Virus record (IMG/VR): IMGVR_UViG_2563366888_000002
Location: 1 to 17,312 of that record
Length of the DNA stretch: 17,312 nucleotides
From: a virus
Taxonomy: Duplodnaviria; Heunggongvirae; Uroviricota; Caudoviricetes
Strand: one strand, 5' to 3'
A program made the position numbers and the translations under genes. Below the pieces are notes generated by a model. The model was given only the letters and a program-made list of their open reading frames with translations. It was not told where the DNA came from and did no database searches. This document shows positions 94 through 14,970 of the stretch, one piece after another. Position 1 is the first letter of the stretch. Each line of letters opens with the position of its first letter.

Positions 94-1223
94 CACAGCC
101 GGTGTTTATGGATCTCGCCAAAAAAGGTGTGGTAGCAGATTTGATTGGCGCAGGCGCAATCATCAGAACCGCGTTCTGCGGCCCATGCTTTGGCGCAGGC
201 GCAATCATCAGAACCGCGTTCTGCGGCCCATGCTTTGGCGCGGGCGATACGCCAATCAACAACGGTTTGAGTATTCGCCACACCACGCGTAACTTCCCGA
301 ACCGCGAAGGCTCTAAGCCAGCTAATGGGCAGATGTCAGCGGTGGCGTTGATGGACGCTCGTTCTATCGCTGCGACTGCGGCAAACGGTGGCTATTTAAC
401 CTCTGCCAGCGAACTTGATTGCTGGGACAACGTGCCGGAGTACGCCTTCGATGTAACGCCGTATAAAAACCGTGTTTATCAGGGCTTTGTGAAAGGGGCA
501 ACTCAGCAACCGCTGATTTACGGGCCGAACATTAAAGACTGGCCGGAATTGGGTGCGCTGACTGACAATATCGTCCTGAAAGTGTGCTCGAAGATCCTCG
601 ACGAAGTGACCACCACCGACGAACTGATTCCTTCCGGTGAAACCTCTTCTTATCGTTCAAATCCGATTGGTCTGGCGGAGTTTACCCTGTCTCGCCGCGA
701 TCCCGGTTATGTTAGCAGAAGTAAAGCGACTGCTGAGCTGGAAAATCAGCGTCTGGCGGGGAATGTCAGCGAGCTGACAGAGGTGTTTGCGCGCATTAAG
801 CAGATTGCTGGTCAGGAGCATATTGATCCGCTGCAAACTGAAATTGGCAGCATGGTCTATGCGGTGAAACCAGGCGATGGTTCTGCGCGTGAACAGGCGG
901 CGAGCTGCCAGCGTGTGATTGGCGGTCTGGCGAATATTGCCGAGGAGTACGCGACTAAACGCTATCGTTCTAACGTCATCAACTGGGGGATGTTACCGCT
1001 GCAAATGGCGGAAGTACCAACCTTTGAAGTGGGGGATTACATTTACATCCCTGGCATTAAAGCGGCGCTGGATAATCCGGGTACGACGTTTAAAGGTTAT
1101 GTGATCCATGAAGATGCGCCGGTAACGGAAATTACGCTCTATATGGAAAGTCTGACTGCTGAAGAGCGCGAGATTATCAAGGCGGGTAGTTTGATTAACT
1201 TCAATAAAAACCGTCAGATGTAA
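94..1223 (+). pseudogene. ybhJ: ybhJ-like aconitase-family hydratase, 3' portion only (5' end removed by the IS; carries an internal 45-bp duplication)
   Basis: Open frame continuous from 94 to TAA at 1221-1223. Translation contains the aconitase-type CGPC Fe-S ligand motif and a C-terminal swivel-domain-like segment (SAREQAA...[12 protein letters not shown]). Position upstream of ybhC and attB-lambda matches the K-12 order ybhJ-ybhC-att. The frame runs into IS sequence with an in-frame stop at 36-38. Confidence 0.7.
147..236. repeat. Perfect 45-bp direct tandem duplication (2 copies) inside ybhJ
   Basis: 147..191 and 192..236 are identical (GGCGCAGGCGCAATCATCAGAACCGCGTTCTGCGGCCCATGCTTT). 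The next bases, GGCGCGGGCG, resemble the repeat start (microhomology). In frame it duplicates [15 protein letters not shown]. Confidence 0.95.
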
Positions 1224-1238
1224 AAAGCGCCATGTGAA

Positions 1239-1347
<109 letters not shown>

Positions 1348-1363
1348 AAATAGTTAATTGCTC

Positions 1364-2647
1364 TTACTTCTTCGCCTCTGCAACCACTTTACTACCCACG
1401 CCGCGGTTATTGTATTCCCACATGCGGTTGTAGTTAGTGTCATTCAGATTGCGCTGTATTTCGTCGTTATCATCTACGCTGCCGGTATTACCCGCAAACG
1501 GACGATTAGAGATCACCGCATCGGCCCACGGTTTAGCCGTGTTAAAACCTTCGTTGATGGCGCTATCACGGATCACCACCTGACCGTTGGTATTGGCATC
1601 AACATCCAGCGAGCGGCCCAGTTGCGCCACACCATCACCGAAAGCATTGAAACGGCTGTTTACGGCGAGGAAACCGTAGTAAATGTTGGACAGCGTAGCC
1701 GGTGCAAACACATACGCTTCTTGCTGAGTACGTGAGTTCACCACGCGGAATTCGGTGTTATCGAACACCACTGCGCCGCGACCAGAAACGATATCCACAT
1801 CCCCTTCAATGTAGCTGTTGGTCACCAGCGTACGCGGCTGACGATTCGTTTCCAGACGGTTCTGCACACCGCTGTTGGTGACAAAGAAGGTGTTCTGACG
1901 ACCGAGAATGTTAACGTTGTTAATCTGTACCTGGTCACCATCAGTACGCAGTGCCACCGCCGGATGGTTACCTGCATCTACGCTATCGCCCAGCGTGTTT
2001 TCGATGGTCAGATTTTGCAGTTGCAGGCCATTGTTTTGTGACCAGAAGACCGCAGAGCAGAGAACACCGATACTGTCGCTGCGTTTGCTCTGGCAGCTAT
2101 CGTACATATACCACGCTGGTTTACCTGGCATATATTTGCCGCGCGGGTTGACGTCGTGACGCCAGTCGGCAGGGCTCATGCCACCATCAAGGGAAAGCCC
2201 AATCTTCACATCAATCGGTTTTTCACCTGTACCGTACAGAGTAATTCCACCCGGAGCGGCAGGGACATATACCGTTCCCTGATACTCACCAGGCATCACG
2301 GCAATATACTGGCGCTTGTTGGTACGCTTGATAATTGCCGCATCTACCGCCGCCTGAATCGTGGTATGCGTTACACCTTGAGTGCCCGCCGGGCCGACAA
2401 CAAAGTCAGGTTGCGCAGGCAGGGTAATCGGGGAAGGATTCCACGCTGCAGCACCTGGTGTCAGGGATGCAAAATAGTGTTGAGCATCGAAATTCTGCGC
2501 TTCTTTTGCCGACAGAATCGGGCGAGAAGAGGTACCAGGCGCGGTTTGATCAGAAGGACGTTGATCGGGCGGGGTTGAGCTACAGGCGGTCAGCGTCACG
2601 CCAAAAGCCAATGCCAGCGCCAGACGGGAAACTGAAAATGTGTTCAC
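1364..2647 (-). CDS. ybhC: YbhC-like outer-membrane lipoprotein, pectinesterase family
   Basis: 427-aa ORF. N-terminal signal peptide with lipobox (LTAC). Sequence recognised as YbhC. Lies immediately beside the lambda attachment core. Confidence 0.85.
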   Translation of the reverse strand: MNTFSVSRLALALAFGVTLTACSSTPPDQRPSDQTAPGTSSRPILSAKEAQNFDAQHYFASLTPGAAAWNPSPITLPAQPDFVVGPAGTQGVTHTTIQAAVDAAIIKRTNKRQYIAVMPGEYQGTVYVPAAPGGITLYGTGEKPIDVKIGLSLDGGMSPADWRHDVNPRGKYMPGKPAWYMYDSCQSKRSDSIGVLCSAVFWSQNNGLQLQNLTIENTLGDSVDAGNHPAVALRTDGDQVQINNVNILGRQNTFFVTNSGVQNRLETNRQPRTLVTNSYIEGDVDIVSGRGAVVFDNTEFRVVNSRTQQEAYVFAPATLSNIYYGFLAVNSRFNAFGDGVAQLGRSLDVDANTNGQVVIRDSAINEGFNTAKPWADAVISNRPFAGNTGSVDDNDEIQRNLNDTNYNRMWEYNNRGVGSKVVAEAKK

Positions 2648-2693
2648 AGGTTGCTCCGGGCTATGAAATAGAAAAATGAATCCGTTGAAGCCT

Positions 2694-2785
2694 GCTTTTT
2701 TATACTAAGTTGGCATTATAAAAAAGCATTGCTTATCAATTTGTTGCAACGAACAGGTCACTATCAGTCAAAATAAAATCATTAT
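2694..2785. other. Prophage attL: lambda 15-bp core GCTTTTTTATACTAA (2694..2708) plus P' arm with arm-type Int sites
   Basis: Exact lambda core sequence. Downstream arm contains AGGTCACTAT / CAGTCAAAAT / AAATCATTAT repeats (lambda P'1-P'3 pattern). Bacterial ybhC sequence on the left, int on the right. Confidence 0.9.
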
Positions 2786-3852
2786 TTGATTTCAATTTTG
2801 TCCCACTCCCTGCCTCTGTCATCACGATACTGTGATGCCATGGTGTCCGACTTATGCCCGAGAAGATGTTGAGCAAACTTATCGCTTATCTGCTTCTCAT
2901 AGAGTCTTGCAGACAAACTGCGCAACTCGTGAAAGGTAGGCGGATCCCCTTCGAAGGAAAGACCTGATGCTTTTCGTGCGCGCATAAAATACCTTGATAC
3001 TGTGCCGGATGAAAGCGGTTCGCGACGAGTAGATGCAATTATGGTTTCTCCGCCAAGAATCTCTTTGCATTTATCAAGTGTTTCCTTCATTGATATTCCG
3101 AGAGCATCAACATGCAATGCTGTTGGGATGGCAATTTTTACGCCTGTTTTGCTTTGCTCGACATAAAGATATCCATCTACGATATCAGACCACTTCATTT
3201 CGCATAAATCACCAACTCGTTGCCCGGTAACAACAGCCAGTTCCATTGCAAGTCTGAGCCAACATGGTGATGATTCTGCTGCTTGATAAATTTTCAGGTA
3301 TTCGTCAGCCGTAAGTCTTGATCTCCTTACCTCTGATTTTGCTGCGCGAGTGGCAGCGACAGGGTTTGTTGTTATATGGCCTTCAGCTATTGCCTCTCGG
3401 AATGCATCGCTCAGTGTTGATCTGATTAACTTGGCTGACGCCGCCTTGCCCTCGTCTATGTATCCATTGAGCATTGCCGCAATTTCTTTTGTGGTGATGT
3501 CTTCAAGTGGAGCATCAGGCAGACCCCTCCTTATTGCTTTAATTTTGCTCATGTAATTTATGAGTGTCTTCTGCTTGATTCCTCTGCTGGCCAGGATTTT
3601 TTCGTAGCGATCAAGCCATGAATGTAACGTAACGGAATTATCACTGTTGATTCTCGCTGTCAGAGGCTTGTGTTTGTGTCCTGAAAATAACTCAATGTTG
3701 GCCTGTATAGCTTCAGTGATTGCGATTCGCCTGTCTCGGCCTAATCCAAACTCTTTACCCGTCCTTGGGTCCCTGTAGCAGTAATATCCATTGTTTCTTA
3801 TATAAAGGTTAGGGGGTAAATCCCGGCGCTCATGACTTCGCCTTCTTCCCAT
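2782..3852 (-). CDS. int: Lambda-type integrase (tyrosine recombinase)
   Basis: 356-aa ORF. Translation recognised as lambda Int essentially end to end (MGRRRSHERRDLPPNLYIRNNGYY...HLLGHKSDTMASQYRDDRGREWDKIEIK). Confidence 0.95.
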   Translation of the reverse strand: MGRRRSHERRDLPPNLYIRNNGYYCYRDPRTGKEFGLGRDRRIAITEAIQANIELFSGHKHKPLTARINSDNSVTLHSWLDRYEKILASRGIKQKTLINYMSKIKAIRRGLPDAPLEDITTKEIAAMLNGYIDEGKAASAKLIRSTLSDAFREAIAEGHITTNPVAATRAAKSEVRRSRLTADEYLKIYQAAESSPCWLRLAMELAVVTGQRVGDLCEMKWSDIVDGYLYVEQSKTGVKIAIPTALHVDALGISMKETLDKCKEILGGETIIASTRREPLSSGTVSRYFMRARKASGLSFEGDPPTFHELRSLSARLYEKQISDKFAQHLLGHKSDTMASQYRDDRGREWDKIEIK

Positions 3853-9514: not shown

Positions 9515-9721
9515 TTAGCGATTCAGGCCGTTACCGCGTCCGTCGAGAAAAACTTCCACGAGCAAATCACGGGTATAAGTGCGCTCGATGCCGCGATGCA
9601 GATAAAGCCGTCCGCGTAAATTAGCTGATGCAGTCCAGGTACCATCTTTGTGTTTGACCAGCATTCCTGGCATGACCGCACCTCGATTAACGGTCTGCGT
9701 TCCGTAATGTTGATGAACCAT
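9515..9721 (-). CDS. Small hypothetical protein in the kil position (68 aa from the SD-supported ATG); frame stays open upstream to a TTG at 9925
   Basis: AGGAG 5 nt before the ATG at 9721. The 136-codon track ORF starts on TTG with no SD. Non-lambda sequence. Confidence 0.45.
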
Positions 9722-9943
9722 AAAAACTCCTGCCCGTAAGCTGGGCTGCTGAACATATAGAGACTTCTGCGCGTATTCAGGCGGTGGATGGCCGCCGGTT
9801 GTCATAACTAAGTCGCCTCGTTGAAGCGACTGAGGTATGAAGTGTTGAGTTGATTTCAGCTGGTCACACCGACGTTCACGCGTCCGCTTCACCCCTCGCA
9901 CTCCCCGAAGCCTGCTGAAATTCAAACTGCGGATCTAAGCGGT

Positions 9944-10072
9944 CATCGCAACGGTGAAACAGGTGGTTACCGTATCGTTGTGTCGTTGCGATGAATTTAT
10001 TTAAAACTATAGTTGTTTTATCGTCAACAACAAAAGTTGTTTTGTCGGTTGTTTTAAATATAACTGGTTGTA
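9944..10072 (-). promoter_or_regulatory. Candidate OL/pL region and early leftward leader: 10-bp inverted repeat with 30-bp spacer plus GTTGTT/AACAAC operator-like half-sites
   Basis: CATCGCAACG (9944-9953) pairs with CGTTGCGATG (9984-9993). Half-sites AGTTGTTTT (10011-10019), CAACAAC (10025-10031), AGTTGTTTT (10035-10043), GGTTGTTTT (10048-10056), CTGGTTGTA (10064-10072). The same half-site recurs in the cI-cro intergenic region. No promoter hexamers confidently placed. Confidence 0.4.
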
Positions 10073-10161: not shown

Positions 10162-10193
10162 GGAGGAAAAGAAAACCCGGCGCGGTTGCCGGG
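10162..10193 (-). terminator. Intrinsic terminator downstream of the lipoprotein gene (end of the cI-side operon)
   Basis: Stem CCCGGC/GCCGGG (10176-10181/10188-10193) with 6-nt loop, followed on the minus-strand RNA by UUUUCUUUUCC. 9 nt after the lipoprotein stop. Confidence 0.6.
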
Positions 10194-10201
10194 TATGATT
10201 A

Positions 10202-10582
10202 TCAGTCAGCCCAACCTGATTTCGAGTTTATTTGGGTTTCTGACATTGTGTATTTCTTAATCGTGTCATCGTTAAAAAGAATAGTAAGTTCTTTTTTCGT
10301 ACCGTTCGTTCCATTATGGAATAATCCATAGAATGGAATAAAAGTGGTGCCATTAACTTTTACTTTTGCAAAGGCGTACTTCCAGATCTCGTTTCCACTG
10401 TCAGTATATGAAACAGCATCAGGAGAACCAAAGTAAGATTTAACCTCATTCTTGGTTGTTTTACCTTCCTGAAGTTTAGACTGGACACTAATTTCAGTTT
10501 CATTTTTGAGTTGCTGGTTGCCTGAAGAAGCACACCCAGCCAATACAGATGCCATCATGGCAGCGATTAGGATTTTTCTCAT
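10202..10582 (-). CDS. BamE/SmpA-OmlA-like small lipoprotein; moron in the rex position downstream of cI
   Basis: 126-aa ORF. Signal peptide with lipobox LAGC. The EGKTTKNEVKSYFGSPD...WKY pattern resembles the BamE fold motif. Same strand as cI and followed by a terminator. Confidence 0.7.
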   Translation of the reverse strand: MRKILIAAMMASVLAGCASSGNQQLKNETEISVQSKLQEGKTTKNEVKSYFGSPDAVSYTDSGNEIWKYAFAKVKVNGTTFIPFYGLFHNGTNGTKKELTILFNDDTIKKYTMSETQINSKSGWAD

Positions 10583-10811
10583 TTTATGTTTCCATTCATT
10601 ATAATCAGAAACATCTTAACATAATGATTCGAAATAAAAACCGCTACGAGATAGGGGGACATTTTGCTGACAGTAGCAACAAATCTCAGCTAACAACGAG
10701 AATATTTACTGAAATATGCAAACAGATTTGGCGTTCTTATAGAGAATTTAGTGCAATATCTAATCCGAGTGGTATAAACCTTAACCTTCGCTCCCTTAAG
10801 TCGTAGATAAA

Positions 10812-11501
10812 TTAACCATGCTTCCTGTACGTCTGCGGCATGCTTCCAATGACCTTACCGAATATGAACACCCGGTTCATCTCGTCTTTCTCGATCGGGT
10901 CCCACGGCGAGTAGCTCTTGTTATCAGAGATAACCAGCAGCTTATCCTTCATCATTTGAAGACGTTTTACATGGGCAGTGTCGTCGTACAGAAACGCATA
11001 GATGCCATCACCGTCGAAAGATTTAACAGTGATATCAACGAACAGCAGGTCACCTGGTTCGATCGTCCCTGACATGCTGTCACCTCGCACGTTAATGATG
11101 CGGATATTTTCCGCCTTCCTGCCATCGAACATGTGACGAGCATCGTCAAACGAGTACTCAACCGAGCGTAGAACTTCTACAAACTCACGGTTGATTACAC
11201 CTGGCCCGGCACTGACTTCTATATCAAGAACGTCAATTTTGAAGTATTTGGAATGGCTGACAGTTGATTGTATTGGTTGCACTGTACTGTCTGACATATT
11301 TCCAACGCCAGAAGATAACCATTCTGCGCGCACACCCAAAGCGTTCGCGATCTCCACGATTTTAGTTGTTTGGTTAGCTTTCCCTGTTTCGATTTTCTGA
11401 ATAGCAGCCTGGCTAACCCCGACCAAATCCCCAAGCGCCTTTTGTGTAAGGCCTCGCGCTAATCTGGCTTCTTTAAGTCTTTCTGAGAGTGTTGTTTTCA
11501 T
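10812..11501 (-). CDS. cI: CI-type prophage repressor (N-terminal HTH_XRE, C-terminal S24 LexA-like peptidase domain)
   Basis: 229-aa ORF. HTH segment LTQKALGDLVGVSQAAIQKIETGK. Candidate Ala-Gly autocleavage site (VSAGPG). Ser/Lys dyad motifs GDSM and HVKRL. No SD before the ATG, consistent with a leaderless pRM-type transcript. Not lambda immunity. Confidence 0.85.
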   Translation of the reverse strand: MKTTLSERLKEARLARGLTQKALGDLVGVSQAAIQKIETGKANQTTKIVEIANALGVRAEWLSSGVGNMSDSTVQPIQSTVSHSKYFKIDVLDIEVSAGPGVINREFVEVLRSVEYSFDDARHMFDGRKAENIRIINVRGDSMSGTIEPGDLLFVDITVKSFDGDGIYAFLYDDTAHVKRLQMMKDKLLVISDNKSYSPWDPIEKDEMNRVFIFGKVIGSMPQTYRKHG

Positions 11502-11605
11502 AGATCAAATGTACAACCAAGGTTTTATTTCATCAAACGAAAATGGTTGTTGACTAAAAACAACCATAGTTTTAATCTTGATTCGGATTAACCACGGAGG
11601 TTGTT
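11502..11605. promoter_or_regulatory. Divergent promoter/operator region (OR; pR-like promoter for cro, leaderless pRM-like start for cI)
   Basis: Rightward TTGACT (11550-11555), 17-bp spacer, TAATCT (11573-11578), then GGAGG before the cro ATG. Inverted repeat ATGGTTGTT (11542-11550) / AACAACCAT (11559-11567) overlaps the -35. Confidence 0.6.
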
Positions 11606-11836
11606 ATGAACCCAGCAATCAAAACAGCGATCAATATCGTTGGTTCACAAAAGAAACTAGGCGATGCCTGCGAAGTTTCACAGCAGGCCGTCTATAAGTG
11701 GCTTCACAACAAAGCAAAGGTATCCCCTGAACATGTCGGCAGCATTGTTACGGCTACTGGTGGAGTTGTGAAGGCATACCAGATTCGCCCGGATCTTCCG
11801 AAGTTGTTTCCACACACCGAAAAGAACGCAGCTTAA
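11606..11836 (+). CDS. Cro-like HTH regulator (YdaS-like)
   Basis: 76-aa ORF divergent from cI with a strong SD. HTH-like segment KKLGDACEVSQQAVYKWLHN. Family call from memory. Confidence 0.7.
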   Translation: MNPAIKTAINIVGSQKKLGDACEVSQQAVYKWLHNKAKVSPEHVGSIVTATGGVVKAYQIRPDLPKLFPHTEKNAA

Positions 11837-14475: not shown

Positions 14476-14970
14476 ATGAGAAAATTTATTATAGCCTTTG
14501 TCATAAGTGCCTCGTTTACTGCAAATGCTGGTGTAGAGAAGTTAGGGTCGTGGATAACAAAGTCTGAGATAAATAAAATGACTGACCAGACTGACTTTGT
14601 GGCTCTTAATTTATCACCAGATTCATATAACAAAGCAGGTACTGATCGTGCAACTTCACTGGTGTTGCGTTGTAGTGATAACAAAACAGATGCCTATTTA
14701 TCATTCAATGATTATATGGGTTCGGACAACCCAAGAATTACAGTGCGGTTAGATGGCGGAAAGCCGGTCAAGAGTGCTTGGGGAGGTGGGGAAGGCGGTG
14801 ATTCTGCATTTGCTCCACAACCAATACAATTTATAAAGACCTTGGCTAAGCATAAAAAAGCTATTTTTGGGTTTGAACCTTATGGATCAACTATGCAAGT
14901 AGTTGAGTTTGACTTGTCTGAGATTGATAAGGTTGTGGAAAAAATTTCACAGTCTTGCAATTGGAAATGA
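14476..14970 (+). CDS. Secreted hypothetical protein (signal peptide, two Cys), low-GC moron
   Basis: 164-aa ORF. N-terminal MRKFIIAFVISASFTANA signal-peptide pattern. GGAG-type SD. Visibly AT-rich relative to neighbours. Followed by a terminator. Confidence 0.65.
   Translation: MRKFIIAFVISASFTANAGVEKLGSWITKSEINKMTDQTDFVALNLSPDSYNKAGTDRATSLVLRCSDNKTDAYLSFNDYMGSDNPRITVRLDGGKPVKSAWGGGEGGDSAFAPQPIQFIKTLAKHKKAIFGFEPYGSTMQVVEFDLSEIDKVVEKISQSCNWK

What the first reader, a model, noticed from the sequence alone, without database searches (positions are those of the whole stretch)
10202..10582. BamE-like lipoprotein occupies the rexAB position downstream of cI: candidate lysogen-expressed exclusion or defence factor
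Seen in sequence: lipobox signal peptide (LAGC) and BamE/SmpA-OmlA-like motif, on the same strand as cI and directly followed by an intrinsic terminator, with no rex-like genes present. Established knowledge: the cI-proximal slot in lambdoid prophages (rexAB in lambda) typically holds lysogen-expressed superinfection-exclusion or abortive-infection genes, and small lipoproteins such as T5 Llp or phi80 Cor block phage receptors. Inference: this lipoprotein may protect the lysogen by masking or perturbing an outer-membrane receptor or the Bam machinery.
Basis: partly seen in the sequence, partly recalled or inferred. Interest (0 to 1): 0.6.

Follow-up and report, generated by a model that had tools for sequence, protein, structure and literature searches.

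The report
Prophage lipoprotein cassette beside the repressor
A lambda-like E. coli prophage carries, just after its repressor gene, a small mobile gene for an outer-membrane lipoprotein that databases wrongly call BamE; it sits where phages usually keep genes that protect the host from other phages, but what it does has not been tested.

Summary
Window 10202-10582 (-) encodes a 126-aa lipoprotein with lipobox LAGC and Cys17. It lies on the cI strand, with an intrinsic terminator 7 nt after the stop. cI and this gene sit between OL/PL and OR/PR, which is the rexAB position.

Sister phages share both flanks exactly but carry nothing, HipA/HipD or GevT/GevA in the slot.

Among the 80 closest viral contigs, 53 have the gene just downstream of a cI-like repressor. 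Another 21 have it just upstream of the tape-measure gene, the slot of the HK97 gp15 exclusion gene. The gene brings a conserved extended -10-like element and is under strong purifying selection (dN/dS about 0.04).

Best reading: a lysogen-expressed moron whose lipoprotein binds a conserved envelope component from the periplasmic side, most likely to exclude incoming phage. This rests on position and fold only. Rival readings are an envelope or OMP helper and an orphan toxin-immunity protein.

The parts
10202..10582 (-). Coding sequence of the 126-aa lipoprotein. The mature part, residues 17-126, has a BamE-type helix-helix-strand fold. It also has a family-specific insertion (about residues 78-90, FIPFYGLF...) and an extra C-terminal strand.
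10532..10582 (-). Signal peptide with lipobox L14-A15-G16-C17. Cys17 is the lipidated first residue of the mature protein. Residue +2 is Ala, which predicts outer-membrane sorting.
   Evidence: Sequence. Cys17 invariant in 80 of 80 relatives. No Asp at +2 in the 72 relatives with a recognised lipobox.
10583..10632 (-). Conserved upstream block that travels with the gene: an extended -10-like element TGTTAAGAT (10621..10613) followed by the leader with GGA about 8 nt before the ATG. This is the putative promoter of the cassette itself.
   Evidence: Eight-genus alignment with invariant TGTTA..AT. In Citrobacter the scan calls TTGACC-16-TAAGAT with TG. 52 of 80 viral loci keep TGTTAAGAT within 1 mismatch, and tape-measure-slot copies keep TGTTAGGAT. 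The promoter role is inferred, not measured.
10195..10811 (-). Variable cargo cassette: the 229-bp spacer, the lipoprotein gene and 7 nt. Its GC content is 36-37%, against about 46-52% in the adjacent cI and red/kil regions.
   Evidence: Homology to six sister phages breaks at 10193/10194 and at 10812/10813. Composition.
10165..10194 (-). Intrinsic terminator: a 7-bp stem with 6 GC pairs, then TTTCTTTTCC. It belongs to the conserved backbone (the counterpart of the lambda immunity-region terminator) and ends the cI-plus-cargo transcript.
   Evidence: Scan. It lies inside the left homology block shared by all sister phages.
10812..11501 (-). cI repressor (HTH plus S24 peptidase). It lies upstream in the same transcription direction.
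   Evidence: Pfam. PHROG. GenBank annotation.
9999..10047 (-). OL/PL region: operator repeats and a leftward promoter (TTGACG-17-TTAAAT). It is homologous to the PR region.
   Evidence: Direct repeat D2 and inverted repeats I1-I3 with 11535-11575. Sequence.
11502..11605 (.). OR/PR/PRM region between cI and cro.
   Evidence: Inverted repeats. cro (YdaS/Cro-like) at 11606-11836.

Best explanation
The gene is a self-contained mobile cassette, a 'moron' (an extra gene unit with its own expression signals, inserted into a phage backbone). It sits in the cargo slot right after the repressor of a lambda-like prophage integrated at att-lambda.

**Expression.** In the lysogen it is probably transcribed by read-through from the repressor promoter PRM and from its own extended -10 promoter. 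Transcription ends at the backbone terminator.

**Product.** After signal peptidase II cleavage and lipidation at Cys17, the product is sorted to the inner leaflet of the outer membrane and faces the periplasm. Its domain has the BamE/BLIP fold, which other proteins use to dock onto the periplasmic face of outer-membrane beta-barrels (BamA, AtaA) or to inhibit periplasmic proteins.

**Proposed action.** The most likely action is binding to a conserved host envelope component, most plausibly an outer-membrane beta-barrel used as a phage receptor or entry route. Incoming phage, and possibly colicins, would then fail to adsorb or to deliver DNA. This would be superinfection exclusion at the envelope, functionally like Cor or Llp, or like HK97 gp15, but built from an unrelated fold.

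**Shown versus inferred.**
- Shown: the ORF, the lipobox, the fold class, the cassette boundaries, the slot usage and purifying selection.
- Inferred: expression in the lysogen, outer-membrane location, the binding partner and the exclusion phenotype.
For: **Architecture.**
- The cassette is bounded exactly by the cI stop codon and the backbone terminator. In sister phages it is replaced by nothing, by HipA/HipD or by GevT/GevA.
- It is AT-rich relative to its flanks.
- No terminator lies between cI and the gene.
- The conserved TGTTA(A/G)GAT element follows a terminator in Citrobacter, Salmonella and Cronobacter copies.

**Position across phages.**
- 53 of the 80 closest IMG/VR loci have the gene 51-1517 bp downstream of a co-oriented cI-like gene. 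Sixteen of these have only a 51-52 bp gap.
- It is always the last gene of the slot, with varying co-cargo such as BstA, an NYN-domain protein or phrog_4506.
- 21 of the 80 lie within 1.2 kb upstream of a co-oriented tape-measure gene. This is the slot of the HK97 gp15 moron, a proven superinfection-exclusion gene that also has chromosomal homologues (PMC3594210).
- rexAB and bstA occupy the cI slot (PMC8585504).

**Fold.**
- The BamE-like domain of TpgA is reported as likely to bind the AtaA barrel directly (bioRxiv 10.64898/2026.01.22.700529).

**Constraint.**
- dN/dS is 0.043 over 384 pairs.
- The lipoprotein stays 79-85% identical while neighbouring tape-measure proteins range from 825 to 1263 aa and repressors differ.
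- This pattern fits a conserved host target rather than a variable phage target.

**Standalone action.** The gene also occurs alone next to an integrase, on plasmids, and in a chromosome between yedD and fliE. It therefore appears to work as a single gene.
Against: - No experiment or expression data bears on the gene. PADLOC has no match and PHROGs lists the family as unknown function.
- It has no similarity to Cor or Llp beyond the signal peptide.
- It is not linked to the receptor-binding genes (J, stf) of this phage, unlike cor and llp.
- Nearly the same protein rides in phages with very different tails. This argues against masking each phage's own receptor.
- The cI-adjacent and tape-measure-adjacent slots also hold non-defence cargo in general, so position is only suggestive.
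- The promoter in this window has a poor -35, and the consensus scan did not call it.
- The model's family-specific loop has low confidence (residues 78-90, pLDDT below 50).
- The authors who sequenced PhiR26_1 annotated PD-lambda-1 as a defence gene but left this gene as hypothetical.
Confidence: 0.4

Rival explanations
1. An envelope-fitness or OMP-helper factor rather than anti-phage defence. The lipoprotein would dock on an outer-membrane barrel to help its assembly or anchoring, as the BamE-like helper TpgA does for a trimeric autotransporter. Alternatively it would toughen the envelope (serum or stress resistance), as lambda Bor and Lom do. Possible clients include the prophage's own outer-membrane proteins.
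For: - The BamE-type fold is top-ranked, and OsmE, an osmotically induced lipoprotein, is also a hit.
- PhiR26_1 carries several envelope morons: an OmpD-like porin, Bor, Lom and an omptin.
- Strong purifying selection and chromosomal copies in Kluyvera and others fit a housekeeping-like envelope role.
- The Burkholderia plasmid copy lies five genes upstream of a YadA-like adhesin.
Against: - The recurrent placement in the two slots best known for exclusion or abortive-infection genes is not explained by this reading.
- The gene occurs in many prophages with no evident linked OMP gene within 5-7 kb.
Confidence: 0.25
2. An orphan periplasmic immunity protein. The lipoprotein would neutralise a periplasm-acting toxin delivered by competitors, such as a T6SS effector, a colicin M-like or lipid-targeting toxin, or a CDI toxin. 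The lysogen would gain protection in bacterial warfare.
For: - Membrane-anchored BamE-like proteins are described as the most widespread immunity proteins for Lipocone and colicin M-like toxins (PMC12419801).
- A VasI-like (T6SS-associated) ORF sits elsewhere in the same prophage.
Against: - No toxin gene is adjacent in any of the contexts examined.
- The paper describes those immunity proteins as rapidly evolving, whereas this clade has dN/dS about 0.04 and 79-100% identity across genera.
Confidence: 0.15
3. A genuine extra copy of BamE, as NCBI's pipeline names it. It would join the BAM complex through BamD and BamA and take part in general outer-membrane protein assembly.
For: - PGAP names it 'outer membrane protein assembly factor BamE' in the listed rows of the 78 matching E. 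coli genomes.
- The fold matches BamE best.
- Family-level homology is supported by hhalign.
Against: - The score is below Pfam's gathering threshold, and a profile search of PDB finds BamE only at E about 0.03.
- BamE's N-terminal RVVYRPDINQGNY segment is a gap in the family. From my memory of the BamE literature, this segment carries residues important for BamD and lipid binding.
- The family has its own 11-residue insertion and C-terminal extension.
- It is AT-rich cargo on prophages and plasmids.
- By established knowledge, the host already has bamE.
Confidence: 0.04

Closest known systems
BamE (SmpA/OmlA, PF04355), lipoprotein of the beta-barrel assembly machine
   Different: - It scores below the Pfam threshold.
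- It lacks BamE's N-terminal conserved segment, and it has an 11-residue FIPxxxLF insertion and an extra C-terminal strand.
- It is carried by prophages, phage-plasmids and conjugative plasmids as AT-rich cargo.
- Any link to BAM is untested.
Cor (phi80/N15/HK022) and Llp (T5) receptor-blocking lipoproteins
   Same: All are small phage-encoded outer-membrane lipoproteins. The proposed mode of action, inactivating an outer-membrane receptor from the periplasmic side, is the same.
   Different: - There is no sequence or fold similarity. The Cor PHROG hit is E 0.066 over the signal peptide only, and neither appears in the PDB or BFVD fold searches.
- The gene is not next to receptor-binding genes.
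- No phenotype is known.
HK97 gp15 moron (superinfection exclusion at DNA entry)
   Same: - About a quarter of close relatives occupy the same slot, between the tail chaperone and the tape-measure gene.
- Both have a moron architecture, act as single genes, and have homologues in bacterial chromosomes.
   Different: gp15 is a small inner-membrane protein of the YebO family, unrelated in sequence and location to this outer-membrane lipoprotein.
lambda RexAB and Salmonella BTP1 BstA (cI-proximal abortive infection systems)
   Same: They sit in the same genomic slot, downstream of cI and upstream of PL. They are presumed to be co-transcribed with the repressor. BstA and this lipoprotein sit side by side in Salmonella phage S107.
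   Different: RexAB and BstA act in the cytoplasm or inner membrane and cause abortive infection. This protein is exported and lipid-anchored, and it shares no homology with them.
BamE-fold binding modules: TpgA (AtaA helper), BtiO and Lipocone-toxin immunity proteins, BLIP
   Same: They share the fold and a periplasmic location, and they act by protein-protein binding.
   Different: Their partners are encoded next to them (adhesin or toxin). Here no partner gene is linked, and sequence evolution is slow.
lambda Bor (lysogen-expressed lipoprotein, serum resistance)
   Same: Both are small prophage lipoprotein morons. A bor gene is present in the same phage.
   Different: The family and the genomic position (lysis region) are unrelated.

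Membership tests
BamE orthologue (PF04355; BAM complex subunit) | Lipobox signal peptide, outer-membrane sorting | tested here: met
   LAGC with Cys17 and Ala at +2. Cys invariant in 80 of 80 relatives, and no Asp at +2 in the 72 with a recognised lipobox. Localisation itself is predicted, not measured.
BamE orthologue (PF04355; BAM complex subunit) | Helix-helix-strand-strand-strand fold | tested here: met
BamE orthologue (PF04355; BAM complex subunit) | Scores above Pfam's curated gathering threshold | tested here: not met
   21.8 bits against a cutoff of 23.2. At family level, 67 of 80 relatives hit at E<0.01, so this is a related domain and not a curated member.
BamE orthologue (PF04355; BAM complex subunit) | Conserved N-terminal segment before helix 1 (E. 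coli RVVYRPDINQGNY) | tested here: not met
   hhalign places a 7-column gap here. The family instead has C-A-S-S-G-N directly after the lipid Cys. The functional importance of this segment is from my memory of the BamE literature.
BamE orthologue (PF04355; BAM complex subunit) | Housekeeping chromosomal gene, one per genome | tested here: not met
   It lies in a prophage cargo slot, is AT-rich, and is found in 78 of 5426 complete E. coli genomes. It also occurs on plasmids.
BamE orthologue (PF04355; BAM complex subunit) | Binds BamD/BamA and supports OMP assembly | not testable with these tools
   This needs co-purification or complementation of a bamE deletion.
Moron (Hendrix/Juhala sense) | Extra DNA between genes that are adjacent in related phages | tested here: met
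   The break-points are at 10193/4 and 10812/3. PhiR34_1 has the slot empty.
Moron (Hendrix/Juhala sense) | Base composition differs from neighbours | tested here: met
   GC is 0.36-0.37, against about 0.46-0.52 in the adjacent cI and red/kil regions.
Moron (Hendrix/Juhala sense) | Own promoter and terminator | tested here: inconclusive
   - A conserved TGTTA(A/G)GAT element, preceded by a terminator, is seen in other genera.
- In this window the -35 is poor, the upstream terminator is degenerate, and the downstream terminator belongs to the backbone.
- No transcript data are available.
Moron (Hendrix/Juhala sense) | Expressed from the repressed prophage | not testable with these tools
   This needs RNA-seq or 5'-RACE of a lysogen.
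Cor/Llp-type receptor-blocking lipoproteins | Homology to Cor or Llp | tested here: not met
Cor/Llp-type receptor-blocking lipoproteins | Gene linked to the receptor-binding protein gene | tested here: not met
   In PhiR26_1 the gene is about 30 kb from J and stf. Elsewhere it lies next to cI or the tape-measure gene.
Cor/Llp-type receptor-blocking lipoproteins | Blocks adsorption or infection through a specific receptor | not testable with these tools
   This needs plating and adsorption assays.
RexAB-type abortive infection system | Two genes: RexA-like sensor plus RexB-like multi-pass membrane protein | tested here: not met
   The slot holds a single 126-aa exported lipoprotein and no other ORF. 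There is no PADLOC match.

The most novel reading that the evidence does not exclude
The lipoprotein is a phage-borne mimic derived from BamE. It would dock on the BAM complex, or on another conserved outer-membrane barrel, from the periplasm. By remodelling that barrel it would close an entry route used by other phages, colicins or CDI toxins. This would be an exclusion mechanism built on a fold not known to be used this way, spread as a single-gene cassette through the two classical exclusion slots of temperate phages and onto plasmids.
Probability: 0.12. Interest if true: 0.75.

Novelty: new variant of a known kind. Interest (0 to 1): 0.45.

Why it matters
The family is large: 1332 clusters at 50% identity. 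It is strongly conserved and rides on prophages, phage-plasmids and conjugative plasmids across Proteobacteria. Yet it is uncharacterised, and genome pipelines label it BamE. That label would mislead anyone counting BAM components or annotating prophage cargo.

The gene sits in two slots already known to hold exclusion and abortive-infection genes, and it acts as a single gene. This makes it an easy candidate to clone and test for envelope-level phage exclusion or another lysogenic-conversion trait. A positive result would add a new fold to the short list of receptor- or entry-blocking lipoproteins and would identify its conserved envelope target.

Tried and rejected
- **Source paper not available.** The near-identical phage PhiR26_1 comes from Brenes & Laub 2025 (Cell Host Microbe 33:1004). 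It is not in the library by DOI or PMID, so I could not check whether the gene or the lysogen was tested. Searches for the cargo names and phage names found nothing useful.\n- **No literature on this kind of protein.** Searches for a prophage BamE-like or OmlA lipoprotein in exclusion found nothing relevant. One search was rejected for syntax.\n- **No defence-family match.** PADLOC returned nothing. The NCBIfam hits were all signal-peptide matches far below cutoff.\n- **Fold search partly unavailable.** The afdb50 library was not on the machine.\n- **Locus search needed a narrower query.** The search for related loci failed with the diverse alignment A1. The closer alignment A2 worked.\n- **No RNA features.** Rfam and tRNA scans of the window were empty.\n- **Promoter not called by the scan.** The consensus scan of the window found no minus-strand promoter in the spacer. 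A perfect TATAAT at 10603-10598 was rejected as the main promoter because its start site would fall on or after the ribosome-binding region. The conserved TGTTAAGAT element further upstream is preferred.\n- **Spacer origin unexplained.** I tested whether the 229-bp spacer is a remnant of co-cargo genes seen elsewhere (BstA, phrog_4506 and others). There was no significant tblastn match.\n- **BamE interface residues not verified.** The paper was not held and another paper did not list them. That point rests on memory.\n- **Genuine BamE rejected.** See the membership test.

Full report
**1. What is in the sequence**

Window 10202..10582 on the minus strand is a 126-codon ORF starting MRKILIAAMMASVLAGC. 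It has a textbook lipoprotein signal: two basic residues, a hydrophobic core, and lipobox L-A-G-C with Cys17. Alanine at +2 predicts Lol-dependent sorting to the outer membrane under the E. coli +2 rule (established knowledge).

Seven nucleotides after the stop codon lies an intrinsic terminator, ACCCGGCAACCGCGCCGGGT followed by TTTCTTTTCC, at 10194..10175. Upstream on the same strand is cI at 10812..11501, with HTH_3 plus Peptidase_S24 domains. cro (11606..11836) is divergent from it.

Operator and promoter repeats at 10001-10047 and 11535-11575 are inverted copies of each other. cI and the lipoprotein gene are therefore enclosed by OL/PL and OR/PR. That is the place occupied by rexAB in lambda. 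No other ORF of meaningful size lies in the slot.

**2. Where the window comes from**

- The 2.6 kb around the gene is 99.7% identical to Escherichia phage PhiR26_1, accession PV340555.1. There the gene is annotated 'hypothetical protein / putative lipoprotein'.
- That phage belongs to the ECOR-derived temperate panel of Brenes & Laub 2025 (identified through reference 25 of PMC13190303). I could not read that paper.
- The left end of the window carries an aconitase-family fragment, a pectinesterase-family ORF, and a lambda-type integrase at 2782-3852. These fit E. coli ybhJ, ybhC and a prophage at att-lambda; the gene names and the site are my inference from the known E. coli map.
- The exact cassette occurs in 78 of 5426 complete E. 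coli genomes, always on the chromosome. In the rows listed, NCBI's pipeline names it 'outer membrane protein assembly factor BamE'.

**3. The gene is swappable cargo**

I compared the window by BLAST with six sister phages. Homology of 91-97% stops at 10193/10194 on the left, which still includes the terminator stem. It resumes at 10812/10813, the cI stop codon.

Between those points the sister phages carry different content:

| Phage | Content of the slot |
|---|---|
| PhiR34_1 | nothing annotated |
| PhiR5_1 | HipA/HipD |
| PhiR47_2 | GevT/GevA |
| IdasGreatGrand, 4A7 | unnamed two-gene pairs of similar size |
| Perceval | a 340-aa protein plus a membrane protein |

The cassette (10195-10811) has 36-37% GC, against about 46-52% in the adjacent cI and red/kil regions. 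The terminator belongs to the backbone and serves whichever cargo is present.

**4. Family and fold**

- PHROGs places the protein in phrog_3135, function unknown (E 2.9e-48). PADLOC has no match.
- An exhaustive HMMER scan finds 1332 clusters at 50% identity with E of 1e-3 or better. Most are about 130-aa lipoproteins.
- In an 80-member alignment, Cys17 and Gly52 are invariant. G21, N22, P54, W67, Y69, P83, F103, V108 and G123 are nearly so.
- This protein alone misses Pfam's BamE threshold (21.8 vs 23.2 bits). However, 67 of 80 relatives hit PF04355 at E<0.01. hhalign of the family against E. coli BamE gives 91.7% probability and E 7.9e-7.
- An AF2 model (mean pLDDT 74, core above 90) shows two helices followed by a sheet of long strands.

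The fold claim is therefore sound, but orthology to BamE is not:
- BamE's N-terminal RVVYRPDINQGNY segment is absent.
- The family has its own 11-residue insertion with a conserved FIPxxxLF motif, which is a low-confidence loop in the model. It also has an extra C-terminal strand.
- A profile search of PDB sequences reaches BamE only at E about 0.03.
- The genomic context is mobile cargo.

The database name 'BamE' is an over-annotation.

**5. Where relatives sit**

Close relatives (71-100% identity) occur in prophages of several genera:

| Host or phage | Arrangement |
|---|---|
| Citrobacter | cI, then a phrog_4506 protein or two small ORFs, then the lipoprotein, then kilR |
| Salmonella phage S107 | cI, then split BstA, then the lipoprotein, then N |
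| Cronobacter | cI, then an NYN-domain protein, then the lipoprotein, then N |
| Enterobacter | cI, then the lipoprotein, with or without a 135-aa ORF between them |

In these it is always the last gene of the slot. The repressors are of different types.

A scan of IMG/VR found 168 relatives. For the best 80 loci:
- 53 have a cI-like gene upstream on the same strand, at 51-1517 bp.
- 22 of those 53 are the E. coli cassette.
- 16 of those 53 have only a 51-52 bp gap, which implies plain operon membership.
- 21 of the 80 instead lie within 1.2 kb upstream of a co-oriented tape-measure gene of 825-1263 aa. The same arrangement is seen in Klebsiella phage RAH1, in Serratia prophages and in an E. 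coli phage-plasmid. In a Buttiauxella prophage the gene lies just after the tape-measure gene.

The position between the tail chaperone and the tape-measure gene is exactly where the first described moron, HK97 gene 15, lies. gp15 is a prophage-expressed superinfection-exclusion protein with chromosomal homologues (PMC3594210).

More distant or scattered copies occur in other settings:
- next to the integrase of Pseudomonas phage Lodos;
- in the head-tail region of an Alteromonas phage;
- on a ParAB plasmid;
- on 135 PLSDB plasmids, 100 of them typed as conjugative and 111 from Burkholderia, the best-matching ones being B. glumae;
- in the Kluyvera chromosome between yedD and fliE;
- in other chromosomal-looking contexts.

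The gene therefore functions on its own and moves as a unit.

**6. Expression signals**

- About 45 nt upstream of the ATG are conserved across eight contexts in six genera. The Kluyvera chromosomal copy is among them. The core is TGTTA(A/G)GAT.
- In Citrobacter the consensus scan calls TTGACC-16-TAAGAT with an upstream TG.
- In Citrobacter, Salmonella and Cronobacter a terminator for the preceding gene sits immediately before this element. The gene must then be transcribed from its own start.
- Tape-measure-slot copies keep TGTTAGGAT after a terminator.
- In this window the element is at 10621..10613. The -35 is poor, the upstream terminator is degenerate, and no terminator separates the gene from cI. 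Read-through from PRM plus a weak own promoter is the likely regime.

All of this is inference from sequence. No transcript data were available.

**7. Selection**

Across 59 distinct coding sequences, 384 informative pairs give a median dN/dS of 0.043, with a 95th percentile of 0.09. Almost all variation falls in the signal peptide.

The protein stays 79-85% identical while the neighbouring repressors and tape-measure proteins differ widely. This is not the signature of an arms race with a variable phage or toxin protein. It fits a conserved host target.

**8. Most likely mechanism**

The gene is probably a lysogen-expressed, outer-membrane-anchored, periplasm-facing lipoprotein with a BamE-fold domain. 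Other proteins use this fold to dock on the periplasmic face of beta-barrels. Examples are BamA for BamE itself and, by report, AtaA for TpgA. Others use it to inhibit periplasmic proteins, as BLIP, BtiO and the Lipocone-toxin immunity proteins do.

The gene occupies two slots that hold exclusion or abortive-infection genes. I therefore favour envelope-level exclusion by binding a conserved outer-membrane protein (confidence 0.4). In function this would be like Cor or Llp, but structurally it is unrelated to them.

Points against this reading:
- No phenotype is known.
- The gene is not linked to receptor-binding genes.
- The same protein occurs in phages with unlike tails.
- The depositors who annotated PD-lambda-1 as a defence gene left this one unnamed.

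The rival readings are:
- an envelope-fitness or OMP-helper role (0.25);
- an orphan immunity protein against periplasmic toxins (0.15), weakened by slow evolution and the absence of a linked toxin gene;
- a true BamE copy (0.04).

**9. Novelty and verdict**

The kind of element is familiar: a prophage moron encoding a small lipoprotein in the repressor-proximal slot. The family, however, is uncharacterised and mis-named, and its dual-slot distribution does not seem to have been described in the literature I could search.

The positional interpretation is supported. The functional interpretation remains a reasonable, directly testable hypothesis. Interest is moderate.

Noticed in passing
window 9944-9993 (transcribed leftward from PL, about 9999-10047): This phage group has no N gene between PL and kil. 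Immediately downstream of PL lies a unique hairpin with a perfect 10-bp stem (CATCGCAACG...CGTTGCGATG), followed after one base by a second stem-loop. This could be a nut- or put-like antitermination RNA, or some other leader element. Rfam has no match.
   Followed up: partly
window 14476-14970 (+): A 164-aa ORF after the replication gene P matches the type VI secretion-associated VasI family (PF11319, 27.5 bits, just above the cutoff). It looks like another piece of cargo in the ren/nin region of the prophage.
   Followed up: no
window 102-3852: An aconitase-family fragment, a pectinesterase-family ORF and a lambda-type integrase (2782-3852, -) occupy the left end. They fit ybhJ, ybhC and the left junction of a prophage at the att-lambda site; that identification is my inference.
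   Followed up: partly
E. coli RefSeq genomes (for example NZ_CP098192.1 3567221-3567901): NCBI's pipeline names this prophage gene 'outer membrane protein assembly factor BamE' in the listed rows of the 78 matching complete E. coli genomes. The same name appears on plasmids. BamE-defining features were not met, so this looks like a systematic over-annotation.
   Followed up: yes
L032 5001-5381 (Kluyvera intermedia CP045845.1): A 77%-identical copy sits alone in the chromosome between yedD and fliE, inside the flagellar region. It keeps the conserved upstream element. It could be the ancestral home of the gene or a landing site for the cassette.
   Followed up: partly
L009 6413-6619 (-), L028 5420-5611 (-), L030 5423-5632 (-), L004 3923-4150 (-): In the Citrobacter, Cronobacter, Enterobacter and Salmonella prophages, a small ORF of 63-75 aa on the opposite strand follows the lipoprotein gene directly. 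It is absent from the E. coli cassette. Its function is unknown.
   Followed up: no
L034 (Burkholderia glumae plasmid NZ_CP100135.1 7831-22202): On F-type conjugative plasmids of B. glumae, a 46%-identical family member lies between a zeta-toxin family gene and a cluster that ends in a 4.7-kb YadA-like adhesin gene. This may be relevant to the idea that BamE-like domains help trimeric autotransporters.
   Followed up: no
L004 2489-3411 (Salmonella phage S107): The bstA homologue next to the lipoprotein gene is split into two ORFs of 255 and 62 aa that together cover the BstA profile. This is either a frameshift or a sequencing error.
   Followed up: no
window 9515-9925 (-): The kil region is called inconsistently. 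Here the longest ORF is 136 aa with a TTG start. GenBank gives 125 aa for PhiR26_1. Other records call a 68-aa KilR. Only the C-terminal 76 residues or so match the Kil PHROG.
   Followed up: no
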